This document shows, piece after piece, positions 2,018-25,821 of a DNA stretch of 25,821 nt. The stretch is from Pseudomonadota bacterium. GTDB lineage: Bacteria; Bdellovibrionota; Bdellovibrionia; Bdellovibrionales; SG-bin7. The notes under the pieces are model-generated. The model searched no databases. It had not been told where the DNA came from and saw only the letters and a list, made by a program, of their open reading frames with translations. The position numbers and the translations under genes were made by a program. The stretch's first letter is position 1. The number at the start of each line of letters is the position of its first letter. The DNA lies in NCBI GenBank assembly GCA_034439715.1, contig JAWXAY010000018.1:1-25821 (forward strand), read 5' to 3'.

Positions 2018-2058
2018 TAGCATTGAACTTTAAACATATCTCTTGTAGTTATCCTCCT

Positions 2059-2358
2059 ATGCCCTTTTATTCGGAATGGTTTAAGCGTCTATCTGATTTC
2101 GAAGTTTCACCTAACCTTTTATGGATTGCTGGTATTTCTTTTTTAGTTGCCTTTTTATTTCTGATTCGCGAATTTTTTTCTTGGATGGTCAAACAAGGTG
2201 AACTCAAACGAGACCTAAAAGACATAAAGGCTGAACTTGAAAGTATAAGTGAACTCTTGAGAGATTATGAGAGAAATAAAGGTGCGGAATCGAACACTCC
2301 GCAACCTGCATTCCCTTTAGTTAGCAATCAAAACCACGATCAGTCGTTAGAAAACTAA
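2059..2358 (+). CDS. Small single-pass membrane protein with coiled coil (hypothetical)
   Basis: TM segment LLWIAGISFLVAFLFLI followed by REFFSW and a coiled-coil-like stretch. Start is uncertain: ATG 2059 or TTG 2023. Confidence 0.65.
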   Translation: MPFYSEWFKRLSDFEVSPNLLWIAGISFLVAFLFLIREFFSWMVKQGELKRDLKDIKAELESISELLRDYERNKGAESNTPQPAFPLVSNQNHDQSLEN

Positions 2359-2408
2359 CTTCATAACTCGAGCTTCGACATCACTGGACATGGGACCGGT
2401 TATGGCAA

Positions 2409-2441
2409 TACCCTCGTTGCTCAATCTCGAACGTCGTCCGA
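2409..2441. repeat. Left arm of long inverted repeat
   Basis: 2416-2441 gttgctcaatctcgaacgtcgtccga is the exact reverse complement of 2782-2807. It extends to 2409-2441 vs 2782-2814 with 2 mismatches. Confidence 0.97.
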
Positions 2442-2511
2442 ATGCAGCATCCGAAATCTGAAGTCTTCAAAATAAACCTATCTCCAGAGCGAACTTAAAA
2501 CTTGTAGAGTT

Positions 2512-2527
2512 TGGCCTGCCATTTGCT
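2512..2527 (+). promoter_or_regulatory. sigma54 (RpoN) -24/-12 promoter
   Basis: TGGCCTGCCATTTGCT: GG at 2513-2514, exactly 10 nt, then GC at 2525-2526, with the TTGC context. Predicted start ~2538, just before the ATG at 2540. Confidence 0.6.
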
Positions 2528-2539
2528 GACAGTGTAGTT

Positions 2540-2815
2540 ATGAGTCGACATAGGCTTTGGCATTTTGAACCTAAACTGGTGCGTGATACCCTTCACCACG
2601 TTTTTCAATGCGCCAAACAGATTCACGAAATTGAATTGGAATTAATAAGACAGCTTAGTCAAATCGATGAAAACCGCTACTTCGTAAGACTTGGGTACAA
2701 GTCCTTGCGAACATTCTGTGTTCACGACCTTAAATTCACGCGCACGCAAGCGCAAAGAATCGTAACAGAGGTTCGACGCCATCGGACGACGTTCGAGATT
2801 GAGCAACAGGGGTAA
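2540..2815 (+). CDS. 91-aa helical protein resembling the N-terminal (DUF222-like) region of Bdellovibrio-type HNH endonucleases, lacking the HNH domain
   Basis: ELELIRQLSQIDENRYFVRLGYKSLRTFCVHDLKFTRTQAQR matches the pattern I recall for that family (L..id..r.y..LGY.SL..yC...L.ys...A.r). No CxxC or HNH motif follows. Confidence 0.6.
   Translation: MSRHRLWHFEPKLVRDTLHHVFQCAKQIHEIELELIRQLSQIDENRYFVRLGYKSLRTFCVHDLKFTRTQAQRIVTEVRRHRTTFEIEQQG
2782..2814. repeat. Right arm of long inverted repeat, inside the 3' end of the 91-aa ORF
   Basis: tcggacgacgttcgagattgagcaacaggggta encodes RTTFEIEQQG and part of the stop codon. It is the reverse complement of 2409-2441. Confidence 0.97.
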
Positions 2816-3003
2816 GTGCTACTACCCAGTGTGCATTTCAATTCGCCAATTATTTTTAAACCAGTGCTAGGTGGTCAGAGTAAAGTGAAGCGCGGCGTCG
2901 CTTGGGGAATGTTTTTTACGAGAGCCGTTACAACTTCATTAGGGAGCTCTGTATAAAAGGGTTGTCGGCTATAGTAAAGGCGAATAGGACTTCGCAGTAG
3001 CGT
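2816..3003 (+). ncRNA. Candidate structured RNA (unassigned family)
   Basis: Nested pairings found by eye: 2816-2823/2996-3003, 2841-2847/2979-2985, 2880-2885/2914-2919, 2888-2892/2899-2903, and 2923-2936/2959-2970 (2-nt bulge). G-U pairs favour the + strand. Confidence 0.3.
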
Positions 3004-4391
3004 CAGCGCTTTGTTGAATAACTTCTGACTGTAACCTCACCCAACGCCGAGAGCTGAGATTTTACAGCGTTGGCATTTGAGAAAACCAATATTTTTAAAT
3101 TTTTTGGTTGATAGTATTTTCGAATGGCTTCGTTAATATCTTCGGCGGAGATTCCGCGTACGTTTTCTACAAAATCAGTTAAATAATAATCAGAAATTTT
3201 ATAAAGTCGTAACGTCAAAAGATTGAATGCGAGGCGCTCAGCCGTTTCAATGGACCTCGGAAAATTACCAATCAAAAGAGCTTTGGCGTCATTGACTTCT
3301 TGTTCGGTAACGCCCTCGTCGCGAAATTTTTCAACCTCTCCCAAGGTCTTTCGGATTAATTCGCCCACCTTATCGTTTCTTGTGCTCGCCGCTACTATAA
3401 AAGGACCAAAATCTTTACGGGCGTCAAACGCGGCGGATATGCCATAAGTCAACCCTGCCTTAACTCGCACACTCTGCATGAGCCGACTGGTAAATCCCGA
3501 ACCTAAAATCGTATTAGCAATTCGTAGTTTTAAAAAGTCGGGGTTATCTCTTTTTATGCCCACATGCCCAATTCTCACCTGTGTCTGCACAAGATCGGCC
3601 TTGTCTATAACTTCTAGCTTTATGCCCTGCCACGGATTGAGCGTGGGGTATTTAGTGTCGTCGATATTTCGTGGCTTCCATCGTGCAAAGCTTTTCTCTA
3701 ACACTTCAATAATATTTGAGTCATAGTTTCCGACAACTGCCAAAACTGCATTGTTAGGTCTAAAATATTGTAAGTAATGTTTTACCACGTGCTTTTGTTT
3801 AATTCCACCGATGCCAGAAACAGTGCCCATGACTGGGTGACCGTAAGGGTGATTGTTATAAAGAAGTTCGCCAAAACTCATGTCAGCAAAGGAATCAGGT
3901 TTCTCTGAGATTTTTTTTATACCATCGATGGTTTGTTTCTTTAGTCTTTGAATTTCGCTGTCAGCAAAATTGGCCTCTGTGATTAATTCGGCAAGAATAC
4001 TTAAGATCGTTTCTCGATGGAAAGATAATCCTGAAGCCGAGACTTCAGTATAATCATATCCCGTCGATATCTCTAGCGAGGCGCCCAATTGTTCTAAGCG
4101 ATCAACTATCTGCATCGCACTGCTCTTTTGTGTTCCCTTTTTAAACATGTCACCCACAAAATTTGTAAGTCCCGGAATTTGATTGGGGTCATGAGCTGCT
4201 CCGGTGCCAAACATCATCGAGAACGAGGTGTATGGCAACGACTTGTCTTCAACCAACAGTACTTTTAAACCATTAGAAAGTTCAGTTTCAGAATAGGGTT
4301 TGATGTTAAACGAAGACCCACTAAATGGATTAATTGAAGCACTGGAACAACCAATGAGCATCAATAGACCGCCAGCTAATAATCTTTTCAT
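3003..4391 (-). CDS. M16B peptidase, non-catalytic subunit, predicted lipoprotein
   Basis: LSNGLKV start of the M16 fold. HxxEH is replaced by NFVGD, while the SRL...VR...GLTY (R/Y) motif is present. ATG 4391 has a GAGG SD and is followed by lipobox-like MKRLLAGGLLMLIG-C. Confidence 0.9.
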   Translation of the reverse strand: MKRLLAGGLLMLIGCSSASINPFSGSSFNIKPYSETELSNGLKVLLVEDKSLPYTSFSMMFGTGAAHDPNQIPGLTNFVGDMFKKGTQKSSAMQIVDRLEQLGASLEISTGYDYTEVSASGLSFHRETILSILAELITEANFADSEIQRLKKQTIDGIKKISEKPDSFADMSFGELLYNNHPYGHPVMGTVSGIGGIKQKHVVKHYLQYFRPNNAVLAVVGNYDSNIIEVLEKSFARWKPRNIDDTKYPTLNPWQGIKLEVIDKADLVQTQVRIGHVGIKRDNPDFLKLRIANTILGSGFTSRLMQSVRVKAGLTYGISAAFDARKDFGPFIVAASTRNDKVGELIRKTLGEVEKFRDEGVTEQEVNDAKALLIGNFPRSIETAERLAFNLLTLRLYKISDYYLTDFVENVRGISAEDINEAIRKYYQPKNLKILVFSNANAVKSQLSALGEVTVRSYSTKR

Positions 4392-4398
4392 AAAAGCC

Positions 4399-5748
4399 TC
4401 ACTTGGGATATATCCTAACAATAGATCTTTGCTCTGGTTTTAAATATTGCTCGGCTACAGTCTGGATTTTTTCTCGGGTGACGGCATTGTACTTATCTAA
4501 ATCTTTAAAAAACATTTGATAGTCACCAAAGAGGGTTTCGTTCATGGCAATAATATTGCCTTTGCCGTGAATAGTTTTTAGCGAATTTACATAGTCAGTC
4601 ATCACTGAGTTTTTTGCCTTTTGTAACTCTTCTTCCGAAATAAGTATTTGCTTTACCCGCCATATTTCGCCAAATATTCCCTGCAATACAGGGTCTTCTT
4701 TTATTCCGGAGCGTAACGATGTGATAATTCCAAAAATTCCATCGTCCTGCAGTGTATAGTTAAAAGCCTGCATCGATAAAGCCTTTTGCTCTTTATAAAC
4801 AAGCCTTCGATGTAGCCGACTTGACTCGCCGGCGCCAAGAATATTTGACAATAGATCGAGCGCATAAGCATCATCAGTTCCCGCTTTAGAAGTTTTAAAG
4901 GTAACTCCTATTGTGGGTGTCTGAACCTCTTTGGAGATTTGCCGTGCTCGCTCCCCACGCTGGAGAGGCTCTACTTGATATTCAGATTTTTCAAGAGTTG
5001 TCGAGGCCGGTAAGGATCCGTAGAATTTTTCGACCAATGCCTTGGTTTTTGAAATACTAATATCGCCCGCAATAACTAATGTTGCATTGTTCGGAGCATA
5101 AAACTTTTTATAAAAGGCGATGCAATCGCTAACCTTCATTCGGTTGAGATCCTCCATCCATCCAACTACGGGCCATTTGTAGGGATGAACTTTAAAGACC
5201 GCACCAAATATTAATTCAAATAGAGTCCCCTGAATGGAGTTCTCAGTCCGCATCCTTCGCTCTTCTTTTACTACCTCTCTTTCGCTTTTGAGGTTGGCTT
5301 CTGTGACTTCCAAATGAGTCATTCGATCTGACTCTAGATCCATAAGCACCTCTAACTTATCGCTAGGGGCATCGATATAGTATCCCGTGTAGTCATTTGA
5401 AGTGAAGGCATTGTTGACAGCTCCATTTGCCTGCAAAATTTGATCAAATCTTTCTGCTGGATATTTGGCTGTGCCTTTAAACATCATATGCTCAAATAAA
5501 TGAGCCATACCCGTCAGTCCGGGTTTTTCGTTCTTAGAGCCAACACGAAACCATGTATGATAGCTGACAAGCGGTACCGAGTGGTCTTCGTAGAGAAGCA
5601 CATTCAAGCCATTATTTAATTTGAACTTTTCAACTGCTAGTTTCAGTTGAAGTTGATTTTCTGGCGGTTTTTCTGGCGCCGAAAAACAAAGGCCAGAAAA
5701 AAGCTCTAAAAAAACAAATGCTAGCGAAGCCACAATCCTTTGTGCCAT
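4399..5748 (-). CDS. M16B zinc peptidase (pitrilysin-like), catalytic subunit, exported
   Basis: Inverted zinc motif HLFEHMMFKG, NAFTS, downstream EREVVKEE, YAPNNA. Signal peptide and AGGAG SD. Confidence 0.95.
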   Translation of the reverse strand: MAQRIVASLAFVFLELFSGLCFSAPEKPPENQLQLKLAVEKFKLNNGLNVLLYEDHSVPLVSYHTWFRVGSKNEKPGLTGMAHLFEHMMFKGTAKYPAERFDQILQANGAVNNAFTSNDYTGYYIDAPSDKLEVLMDLESDRMTHLEVTEANLKSEREVVKEERRMRTENSIQGTLFELIFGAVFKVHPYKWPVVGWMEDLNRMKVSDCIAFYKKFYAPNNATLVIAGDISISKTKALVEKFYGSLPASTTLEKSEYQVEPLQRGERARQISKEVQTPTIGVTFKTSKAGTDDAYALDLLSNILGAGESSRLHRRLVYKEQKALSMQAFNYTLQDDGIFGIITSLRSGIKEDPVLQGIFGEIWRVKQILISEEELQKAKNSVMTDYVNSLKTIHGKGNIIAMNETLFGDYQMFFKDLDKYNAVTREKIQTVAEQYLKPEQRSIVRIYPK

Positions 5749-24790: not shown

Positions 24791-25821
24791 TTAATTAAGA
24801 ACCTGAGAACCACTTGCCAACGGTGAACCTGACGAAACATCGAGGGTAAAACTACCGCTCGAAGCTTTCATATACACACGGTCCGAATATGTCGAGGCGT
24901 TAGGAATAGTGGCATTCAAAGTACTAACAGCCGTAGTAGTGCAACTGCTATCACTATAAAGATAGCTTCCTGAGGTCGTAGTAAATGTAATTGCGATATT
25001 TGAATTTGCATAGATTTGGCTACCACTGGAATTTTCTGCCTTAGCCTGTACTTCGTAACATTGATCCGGCGTATAGGCGCTGATTATGCCAGGATTAAAA
25101 TAGAAAGAGTAGACTGAAATCACATTGGTTTGCACATCAATTGGCGAGGATGTTACCGGTGTCAGAGCGGCTACACTGTCCGTTAAGGTAATAGTGCCTG
25201 TGTTGCTTACGGCAGTAGCCTTAAAGTAAGCATAGGTATCAGGGCTGCCACTGGAAATAACTGCACTCGTAGTCGTGGCAGAACAACCATAATCAGAATA
25301 GAAGGCTGCGCCTGGAACACTTTTAGTCAAATTGACAGTTGTCGCACTCGACACAACTGCGGGTTCATTCGAACTATTTTCGGCGCGTATGAACATTCTA
25401 TAACAGACGTCTTTTATCGCTGGGTTTGGCAGGCCCTGTGACAGTTTTGTAGCTGGCCCAGCCCCTAACACTGATAGGTTGAACATGGATTCCGAATATC
25501 CACTTGCGCCGGCCCTGAGGTAGGCATAGCCAGAATTTACGCTCTTAAAATAAAAAACAGGAGATACAGAAGTGCCCGAATTAATAGTGACCGACGAAAT
25601 TGTCGGCGTACTCGATATGCAGTTAGGACTAGAACTATAAAAATAAGCTCCGCTAACTCCCGTAACGAGCGGGAAATTAACCGACAGGTTTGAAGTTGCA
25701 TTCTCTGGGCTGCCATTGTTTGTAATAGCGATTCTCATTGCCATGCAAACATTGGAATCTACAAAACTGTCAGCGGAATTTGCGTCGGTACTTTTGATAA
25801 ACGAAAACATTGGCCCTCCAC
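24791..25821 (-). CDS. Ser/Thr-rich surface protein with ~115-aa Ig-like repeats, probably 5'-partial
   Basis: The frame stays open to the window edge. Three repeats C..(x~35)..[FL]YS.x.C..(x~20)..Y.K, with the first Cys at aa 22, 136 and 251 of the given ORF. Confidence 0.75.
   Translation of the reverse strand, partial: GGPMFSFIKSTDANSADSFVDSNVCMAMRIAITNNGSPENATSNLSVNFPLVTGVSGAYFYSSSPNCISSTPTISSVTINSGTSVSPVFYFKSVNSGYAYLRAGASGYSESMFNLSVLGAGPATKLSQGLPNPAIKDVCYRMFIRAENSSNEPAVVSSATTVNLTKSVPGAAFYSDYGCSATTTSAVISSGSPDTYAYFKATAVSNTGTITLTDSVAALTPVTSSPIDVQTNVISVYSFYFNPGIISAYTPDQCYEVQAKAENSSGSQIYANSNIAITFTTTSGSYLYSDSSCTTTAVSTLNATIPNASTYSDRVYMKASSGSFTLDVSSGSPLASGSQVLN

What the first reader, a model, noticed from the sequence alone, without database searches (positions are those of the whole stretch)
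2409..2814. Promoter and small ORF enclosed by a perfect 26-bp inverted repeat whose right arm encodes the ORF's C-terminus
Seen in sequence: 2416-2441 and 2782-2807 are exact reverse complements. They extend to 33 bp with 2 mismatches (2409-2441/2782-2814), and possibly with indels to ~2385/2835. The arms are 340 bp apart and enclose a sigma54-like promoter and almost all of the 91-aa ORF. A match this long is not expected by chance and is far too widely spaced for a terminator. Both outer ends read TA (2409-2410, 2813-2814). No recombinase or transposase is present in the window. Inference, three options: (a) an invertible switch that flips promoter plus ORF and swaps the C-terminus from RTTFEIEQQG* to RTTFEIEQRGYCHNRSHVQ*; (b) a non-autonomous mobile element with terminal repeats and a TA target, mobilised in trans; (c) a long-range RNA or ssDNA stem, or a cis antisense/guide segment matching the gene's own 3' end. 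I know of no described system with this layout.
Basis: partly seen in the sequence, partly recalled or inferred. Interest (0 to 1): 0.85.

Follow-up and report, generated by a model that had tools for sequence, protein, structure and literature searches.

The report
Repeat-flanked mini-gene of predatory bacteria
The inverted repeat is two copies of an apparently undescribed repeat family scattered through genomes of Bdellovibrio-like predatory bacteria; the tiny gene between them probably makes the protein that recognises the repeat, and similar pairs enclose swapped or flipped passenger genes.

Summary
The inverted repeat is real and is not a one-off. The 91-aa ORF is a conserved gene: a stand-alone helix-turn-helix domain, predicted to dimerise, related to the N-terminus of Bdellovibrionales DUF222-like/HNH proteins. 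It was found in 43 of 384 genomes of the order, mostly single-copy, in 36 different neighbourhoods. In 35 of 47 distinct loci it is enclosed by two inverted copies of a ~30-bp repeat whose sequence co-varies with the locus. The repeat is also dispersed (10 copies here, up to ~60 in relatives) as singlets, hairpin doublets and pairs enclosing unrelated passenger genes, and it tracks the gene across genomes. Three relatives have an empty site at this locus; two other sites show the enclosed gene flipped between lineages. Best reading: a REPtron/TIRtron/Ssn-like 'home cassette' of a repeat family, but with a small DNA-binding protein lacking any recognisable catalytic domain. Binding and the mobilising enzyme are not shown. 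No inversion was seen in shallow contigs from four runs; an RNA stem is disfavoured. My literature searches and look-ups in this scan's earlier findings found no description.

The parts
2409..2441 (+). Left arm: copy of the dispersed ~30-bp repeat (exact part 2416-2441; the family model extends to about 2453)
2442..2470 (+). Weakly conserved inner flank of left arms (GCAGCAT-like, then CCGAA-like words)
   Evidence: seen in aligned homologous loci; function unknown
2512..2526 (+). Sigma54-type -24/-12 element; predicted start near 2538, so a nearly leaderless mRNA that excludes the left arm (inference)
   Evidence: GG-N8-TTG[CA] within 45 nt of the start in 21 of 46 loci, TTGC alone in 23 more; 0 of 138 control windows
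2540..2815 (+). 91-aa gene: long helix plus helix-turn-helix-like module; stand-alone form of the N-terminal domain of Bdellovibrionales DUF222-like/HNH proteins; predicted homodimer
   Evidence: third-position excess in 6 of 6 pairs
2770..2814 (-). Right arm: second repeat copy, inverted; overlaps the VRR codons and supplies the variable C-terminal tail (matched arm 2782-2814)
2359..3002 (.). Whole 644-bp insert between two convergent genes; 0 bp in 3 relatives
   Evidence: G002, G003, G030
2023..2358 (+). Host 111-aa ORF, left flank, not part of the unit
3003..4421 (-).

Best explanation
The locus is the 'home cassette' of a dispersed repeat family of Bdellovibrionales: arm - sigma54 promoter - small gene - inverted arm, inserted between two convergent host genes. 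SHOWN: the cassette architecture, the repeat family, its forms (singlets, hairpin doublets, pairs around passenger genes), empty sites, flips and passenger differences at orthologous sites, and co-distribution and sequence concordance of gene and repeat. INFERRED: the protein is a homodimeric helix-turn-helix that binds its cognate repeat, brings two arms together (also looping or repressing its own promoter), and thereby makes arm-bounded DNA a substrate for copying, replacement and inversion. The strand breakage is most likely supplied in trans by host recombination/repair or an unlinked transposase or recombinase, since no catalytic domain is recognisable in 91 aa. It works like a REPtron/TIRtron or the NTS-ssnA-NTS unit, with a binding protein in place of the nuclease.
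For: Own upstream vs own post-VRR arm scores >=30 in 22 of 45 loci, vs 0 of 2250 shuffles and 4.8% of 1980 cross-locus pairs; the own arm is best or tied in 19 of those 22. 35 of 47 loci enclosed by the motif model. The arm pair persists when the right arm is displaced from the coding core or lies beyond the stop (L009, L044, L052, L073, L081, L082). Three or more copies beyond the gene's own arms in 23 of 43 gene-bearing genomes vs 5 of 71 chosen gene-less genomes; in genus g12, 15 of 20 vs 4 of 32. Dispersed copies match their own genome's gene arms best or tied in 53 of 121, top-3 in 79 of 121, among 39 genomes. 36 neighbourhoods for 47 loci. Empty site in 3 of 5 relatives checked. One site in g12 holds nothing (G191, G181, G212, G221 and others), a hairpin doublet (G219), or arm pairs around unrelated 145-aa (G190) and 352-aa (G194) genes. 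Flips: L083 vs L010/L085, one clade at 100/98; a glyoxalase gene in G181 vs G212, with breakpoints in the arms. G067 doublets have sharp symmetric ends in unique flanks. Homodimer model 0.76 vs best control 0.00; mark reached by 20 of 30 solved pairs and 1 of 23 single chains; 100% run agreement, partner pLDDT >=79.
Against: No binding or mobility was measured. No catalytic partner was found: 0 of 20 Y1-transposase loci carry the motif, Y1 genes occur in 36 of 40 genomes regardless of the repeat and none was found in G275, which has 11 copies; no full-length HNH relative was found in G023, G172 or G187. Five genomes have 6-13 copies but no short gene found (three are 95-99% complete). No target duplication. 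In G187 the own-arm match is weak (7 of 45) and its identical copies ride inside a different miniature element. The co-distribution test is biased: the model was trained on gene-bearing loci, 147 vs 89 candidates were scored per genome, negatives were hand-picked and kin are not independent. The empty-site relatives are distant (41-55% protein identity), so insertion ends cannot be mapped.
Confidence: 0.55

Rival explanations
1. Passenger model: the repeat is the end of a miniature element moved by an unrelated, unfound transposase; the small gene is an early-captured passenger that does not act on the repeat.
For: Arm pairs enclose many unrelated genes (GNAT, TPR, glyoxalase, LysR). Repeats persist in 5 genomes without the gene. 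The protein has no catalytic motif.
Against: The gene stays enclosed in 35 of 47 loci across several families while other passengers are lineage-specific. Repeat abundance tracks the gene. Its last codons overlap the repeat. Some long relatives are also bracketed by their own repeats: 7 of 21 in one set, though 1 of 19 in another.
Confidence: 0.17
2. Transcription-factor model: the arms are operators of a small dimeric regulator that loops its own sigma54 promoter; dispersed copies are its regulon and nothing moves as a unit.
For: Helix-turn-helix-like fold and dimer. The left arm usually sits 70-170 nt upstream of the start, near where sigma54 enhancers lie (spacing from recall). Two paralogues in G000 come with two repeat subtypes.
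Against: Copy number ranges 0-61 among relatives. Many doublets have a fixed length and sharp ends. The gene occupies 36 neighbourhoods, 25 of 41 between convergent genes. Empty sites, flips and passenger changes are not expected of operators.
Confidence: 0.13
3. Active invertible switch (inverton) flipped by a site-specific recombinase, swapping the C-terminus or redirecting read-through.
For: Two sites are flipped between lineages, one with breakpoints in the arms. G000 encodes 6 resolvase-family and 14 phage-integrase-family matches.
Against: Promoter and ORF flip together, so there is no on/off effect. The tail is unconserved. Only 2 of 27 arm pairs are perfect. Four loci have both arms on one side of the gene. 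The flipped glyoxalase gene is only 76% identical against 87-95% flanks, i.e. old or replaced rather than switching.
Confidence: 0.08
4. RNA-level function: read-through transcripts form a long-range stem around the gene, and doublets act as mRNA-stabilising or terminating hairpins.
For: The stem is stable in silico (z -5.55). 31 of 41 loci have a co-oriented upstream gene that could read through. Doublets form hairpins.
Against: The conserved promoter starts downstream of the left arm. Arm mismatches: 10 G-U-compatible on the mRNA strand, 27 on the opposite strand, 43 transversions. The dyad inside one unit shows no covariation (500 of 500 shuffles at least as high). No Rfam match.
Confidence: 0.07

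Closest known systems
REPtron / REPIN-RAYT system (10.1101/2021.07.10.451892, part 1 of 5 read; PMC3733652, passages and section 16 read)
   Same: Mostly single-copy gene flanked by inverted copies of a short extragenic repeat; about 65-130-bp inverted doublets dispersed in the genome; lineage-specific repeat sequence.
   Different: No HUH/tyrosine transposase; no GTAG or CGTC tag at a hairpin foot; the unit is not a conserved hairpin; the gene changes neighbourhood often, whereas RAYTs stay put within species; pairs enclose passenger genes.
TIRtron (TIR-flanked tyrosine transposase genes; PMC3733652 section 16)
   Same: Gene flanked by long inverted repeats that can overlap its 3' end and form moderately abundant families, often as dimers. 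This is the closest architectural match.
   Different: TIRYT proteins keep the HUH motif and catalytic tyrosine; this is a 91-aa helical protein with no Pfam match.
Ssn nucleases with NTS/SRM repeats (PMC11893778, passages read)
   Same: Small single-domain gene in a repeat-gene-repeat layout; about 30-nt repeats co-evolving with each homologue; repeats near variable genes.
   Different: Ssn is a GIY-YIG nuclease acting on single-stranded hairpins; here the fold is helical and the repeat unit lacks a supported hairpin.
DUF222-like/HNH multi-copy proteins of Bdellovibrionota, Myxococcota and Actinomycetota (REP13E12 link recalled, only search listings seen)
   Same: Homologous N-terminal domain (hhalign probability 96.7%, E 4e-10; Atlas); some long genes are bracketed by their own repeats.
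   Different: Lacks the middle region and HNH domain; has its own N-terminal extension and repeat family, not found at the long genes.
MITEs and composite non-autonomous transposons; invertons (recalled)
   Same: Terminal inverted repeats, passenger genes, empty sites, orientation changes.
   Different: No target duplication, no cognate transposase or recombinase found, imperfect arms.

Membership tests
REPIN-RAYT / REPtron | Flanked gene encodes an HUH tyrosine transposase | tested here: not met
   91-aa all-helical protein; no Pfam family for the query and no Y1_Tnp among the 25 of 28 families listed for 82 members; model
REPIN-RAYT / REPtron | Repeat unit is a short palindrome with a GTAG (or CGTC) foot | tested here: not met
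   Internal dyad pairs in 71.8% of cells with no covariation; consensus has no GTAG; a GCGTC word occurs but not at a hairpin foot
REPIN-RAYT / REPtron | Inverted doublets of about 100 bp dispersed in extragenic space | tested here: met
REPIN-RAYT / REPtron | Dedicated gene mostly single-copy and co-distributed with the repeat | tested here: met
   40 of 43 genomes have one copy; 23 of 43 vs 5 of 71, with the biases stated
REPIN-RAYT / REPtron | Gene stays in one extragenic space within a species | not testable with these tools
   One genome per species is held; across species, 36 neighbourhoods for 47 loci
TIRtron | Long inverted repeats flank or overlap the gene and form a dispersed family | tested here: met
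TIRtron | Enclosed gene is a tyrosine transposase | tested here: not met
   motif absent at 20 of 20 Y1 loci examined
Ssn-NTS | GIY-YIG nuclease domain | tested here: not met
   No Pfam match and an all-helical model
Ssn-NTS | Protein recognises its own flanking repeat | not testable with these tools
   Only indirect sequence concordance
MITE / IS-type element | Terminal inverted repeats and empty sites | tested here: met
MITE / IS-type element | Target-site duplication | tested here: not met
   20 G067 doublets: none at the sharp boundary, only chance-level 2-4-mers further out
MITE / IS-type element | Cognate transposase with the same ends | tested here: inconclusive
   None among the arm-bounded ORFs viewed (output partly cut); not all copies were inspected
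Inverton | Both orientations within one population | tested here: inconclusive
   No joints in 4 runs, but contigs only, depth about 4-10
Inverton | Near-identical arms acted on by a linked recombinase | tested here: not met
   2 of 27 pairs perfect; no recombinase in the window; unlinked ones exist
DUF222-like/HNH proteins | Homologous N-terminal helical domain | tested here: met
   Pfam DUF222 itself is not hit
DUF222-like/HNH proteins | C-terminal HNH nuclease | tested here: not met
   Present in the long relatives, absent from the 91-aa ORF

The most novel reading that the evidence does not exclude
A fourth kind of repeat-gene-repeat system beside RAYT, TIRYT and Ssn: a roughly 90-residue helix-turn-helix dimer, cut down from a selfish HNH family, that by itself or as an adaptor for host enzymes directs duplication of its hairpin doublets and the exchange and inversion of gene cassettes between paired arms. 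This would be an integron-like cassette-swapping device for predatory bacteria that needs no dedicated recombinase.
Probability: 0.25. Interest if true: 0.87.

Novelty: new variant of a known kind. Interest (0 to 1): 0.72.

Why it matters
The repeat-gene-repeat systems I compared (RAYT/REP, TIRYT/TIR, Ssn/NTS) all centre on a nuclease or transposase. Here the same genome-level pattern centres on a tiny protein with no recognisable catalytic domain. That makes a standing question testable: how short bacterial repeats are made and kept when no dedicated transposase is evident (PMC3733652 raises it for CGTC repeats). It also gives a first concrete handle on the uncharacterised DUF222-like domain, with dozens of natural protein-repeat pairs for specificity tests, and points to hot spots of gene exchange in predatory bacteria.

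Tried and rejected
Viral origin: no relative in viral contigs; in a 401-genome phylum sample all 7 hits were within the order. Known RNA family: none at gathering score in 3 sources. Solved fold: best Z 5.6 (rmsd 4.0, 75 aligned) in the wide search, several helix-turn-helix/sigma4 domains at Z about 5 (rmsd 2.2-2.5, 48-52 aligned), no Foldseek match at E<=0.001; these show a common arrangement only. Expression: no RNA holder listed. Inversion in reads: no joints, but contigs drop rare variants. RAYT-like Y1 partner: not linked, not co-distributed. Long HNH partner: the motif was at none of the long loci; only L162 had one hit, about 1 kb from the gene's start; no full-length relative was found in 3 of 5 genomes. 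Hairpin inside one repeat unit: no covariation. My notebook idea (entry 4) that the G187 128-bp doublet is a deletion derivative of the gene cassette is withdrawn: the shared word is part of the repeat even in gene-less genomes, and that doublet lies inside another miniature element. TA target site: not family-wide. Sigma70 promoter/terminator scan: chance level. Literature: DUF222+HNH+inverted repeat, 0 papers; Bdellovibrio+HNH endonuclease+palindrom, 2 listings (48); DUF222, 27 listings (60); Bdellovibrio+repetitive extragenic palindromic, 2 (81); REP13E12, 19 (84); Pseudobdellovibrio+repeat+inverted, 3 (109). None looked relevant by title and abstract start; they were not opened, no supplements were read, and subscription journals are not covered. 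Earlier findings of this scan: nothing by sequence, words or relatives; two unrelated notes by place.

Full report
OBSERVATION. The arms are as described: 26 bp exact (2416-2441/2782-2807), 33 bp with two mismatches, 340 nt apart. The longer gapped extension is not supported. The locus is identical over 1000 nt in three metagenome contigs (L087-L089) and is spanned by single contigs in 2 of 4 runs laid, with no joints, though at depth about 4-10 and as contigs only. Titled records of relatives name Bdellovibrionales.

THE GENE. The 91-aa ORF has no Pfam family but is a real gene. A profile finds 122 representatives at E<=1e-10 and 366 at 0.001. Six of 6 pairs compared show most differences at third codon positions, although two have more non-synonymous than synonymous codons. 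It is homologous to the N-terminus of ~300-aa HNH proteins that are multi-copy in the order (hhalign 96.7%, E 4e-10; HNH confirmed in two; Atlas look-alikes named DUF222/HNH at 0.94-0.96). AlphaFold2 gives a long helix plus two helices (pLDDT 93.8); structural matches are weak helix-turn-helix-type hits (Z<=5.6). A homodimer through the long helix scores 0.76 against a best control of 0.00; that mark was reached by 20 of 30 solved pairs and 1 of 23 single chains, runs agreed in 100% of contacts, partner pLDDT >=79. This supports but does not show dimerisation. The short form was found in 43 of 384 genomes of the order (50 hits less 7 with long forms only), as one copy in 40 (only 12 candidates per genome were scored), and not outside the order in 401 phylum genomes or in viral contigs. 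A sigma54-type element sits at a near-fixed distance from the start codon (21 of 46 full, 23 more TTGC only; 0 of 138 controls), implying a nearly leaderless transcript that excludes the left arm (inference).

THE ARMS CO-VARY. A paralogue in the same genome (C2:15504, 37% identical) has its own 24-of-27 inverted repeat with a different sequence. Among 47 distinct loci (61 hits deduplicated; 45 with enough upstream DNA), the upstream region matches the reverse complement of the locus's own post-VRR segment at score >=30 in 22 of 45, against 0 of 2250 shuffles and 4.8% of cross-locus pairs. More loci have the pair with the right arm displaced, even past the stop codon, so the arm is a DNA element that the ORF reads into. 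A motif model (built from these loci, so not independent) of 47 enclosed, 3 with both copies downstream, 1 with both upstream, 5 one-sided (2 truncated by contig ends) and 3 without; several of the latter have their own inverted repeat by direct alignment.

THE ARM IS A DISPERSED REPEAT. G000 holds 10 copies: two pairs around the two genes, one gene-less hairpin doublet (C88) and four singlets, in two subtypes resembling the two paralogues' arms; the 10th scores 13.4 bits, below the best reversed-genome control hit of 15.9. With model R1, 40 of 43 gene-bearing genomes have a match (up to 61) versus 13 of 71 chosen gene-less genomes. Counting three or more copies beyond the gene's arms gives 23 of 43 versus 5 of 71, and 15 of 20 versus 4 of 32 in genus g12 (biases listed in the Against line). 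The five exceptions gave no short gene on a second search. Dispersed copies resemble their own genome's gene arms (best or tied 53 of 121, top three 79 of 121 among 39 genomes; strong in G067, weak in G187). In G067, 20 doublets of about 82 bp between their conserved ends lie in unrelated flanks, with sharp symmetric ends and no target duplication.

MOVEMENT, PASSENGERS, FLIPS. The 47 loci fall in 36 neighbourhoods, 25 of 41 between convergent genes. At the window's site, 3 of 5 relatives checked have the two host genes abutting with no gap; one has other genes there and one is not syntenic. Arm pairs enclose GNAT, TPR, glyoxalase, LysR and unknown genes. At one site in g12, of 30 loci fetched (39 matches), 27 lack the motif, G219 has a doublet, and G190 and G194 have arm pairs around unrelated 145- and 352-aa genes; G191, 97% identical in the flanking protein, is empty. 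The insert there extends beyond the arms, and G190 shows a further duplication, so junctions are not simple. The small gene is flipped between the same two flanking genes in L083 relative to L010 and L085, which form one clade. A glyoxalase gene is flipped between G181 and G212 with breakpoints inside the arms, the inside being 76% identical against 87-95% flanks. These are differences between lineages, not evidence of switching.

NO CATALYTIC PARTNER FOUND. Y1 transposases are common (5 of 5 and 36 of 40 genomes) but 0 of 20 loci examined carry the motif, and G275 has copies without a Y1 hit. Long HNH relatives lack the motif at their ends and no full-length one was found in G023, G172 or G187. 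Some long genes are bracketed by their own repeats, upstream and just before the HNH domain or at the gene end: 7 of 21 in one set (cross-control 1.4%) but 1 of 19 in a second. This suggests, weakly, that repeat association predates the short form.

MECHANISM AND RIVALS. Best reading (0.55): a home cassette whose dimeric product binds the repeat and promotes copying, exchange and inversion of arm-bounded DNA, with breakage supplied in trans. Rivals: passenger of an element with an unfound transposase (0.17), pure operator/regulon (0.13), active inverton (0.08), RNA stem (0.07). Arm mismatches (10 G-U-compatible on the mRNA strand, 27 on the other, 43 transversions; 2 of 27 pairs perfect) and the lack of covariation inside the unit weigh against the last two.

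COMPARISON. It works like REPtrons/TIRtrons (PMC3733652, passages and section 16), REPIN-RAYT (10.1101/2021.07.10.451892, part 1 of 5) and NTS-ssnA-NTS (PMC11893778, passages) but fails the defining enzyme test for each. Searches (listings only) showed no description of this repeat or gene; subscription journals and supplements were not seen. Verdict: real, conserved, a new variant of the repeat-gene-repeat kind; interest 0.72.

Noticed in passing
G187 loci L151, L186, L189 (right end), L192, L193 (left end): A separate miniature element of about 280 bp with ~22-bp terminal inverted repeats carries the 128-bp doublet inside it and occurs in several near-identical copies, some beside toxin-antitoxin-like small genes (labels by eye).
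   Followed up: partly
L019, L021, L023, L026, L032, L037, L040: Long DUF222-like/HNH genes carry a locus-specific repeat, often palindromic, upstream and again just before the HNH domain or at the gene end; an inversion between arms would detach the nuclease from its promoter. Seen in 7 of 21, but 1 of 19 in a second set.
   Followed up: partly
G000:C16:39440-39638, C110:11041-11235, C29:59901-60098: Another inverted-repeat family in this genome: arms of 16-27 bp sharing one sequence, 145-166 bp apart.
   Followed up: no
G000:C7:5304-5413, C48:3129-3200, C111:9006-10260: Further long exact inverted repeats (35, 30 and 21 bp; the last encloses 1.2 kb).
   Followed up: no
L003:325-1686 (G000:C59): A 453-aa reverse-transcriptase-like ORF (group II intron type by eye) lies next to a long HNH relative.
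   Followed up: no
L068, L069: Arms are doubled on both sides of the small gene, about 65 bp apart.
   Followed up: no
L140, L159, L226, L228 (G190, G194): In this gene-less clade the arms extend outward to about 75 bp and include a terminator-like hairpin; G190 also has a ~21-bp direct repeat of the upstream gene's end after the insert.
   Followed up: partly
window 24791-25810: Serine/threonine-rich ORF at the contig end with internal repeats, probably a truncated large surface protein.
   Followed up: no
Bdellovibrionales genomes: Y1_Tnp-like genes are numerous (up to 29 per genome) with weak scores; their own flanking repeats were not examined.
   Followed up: no
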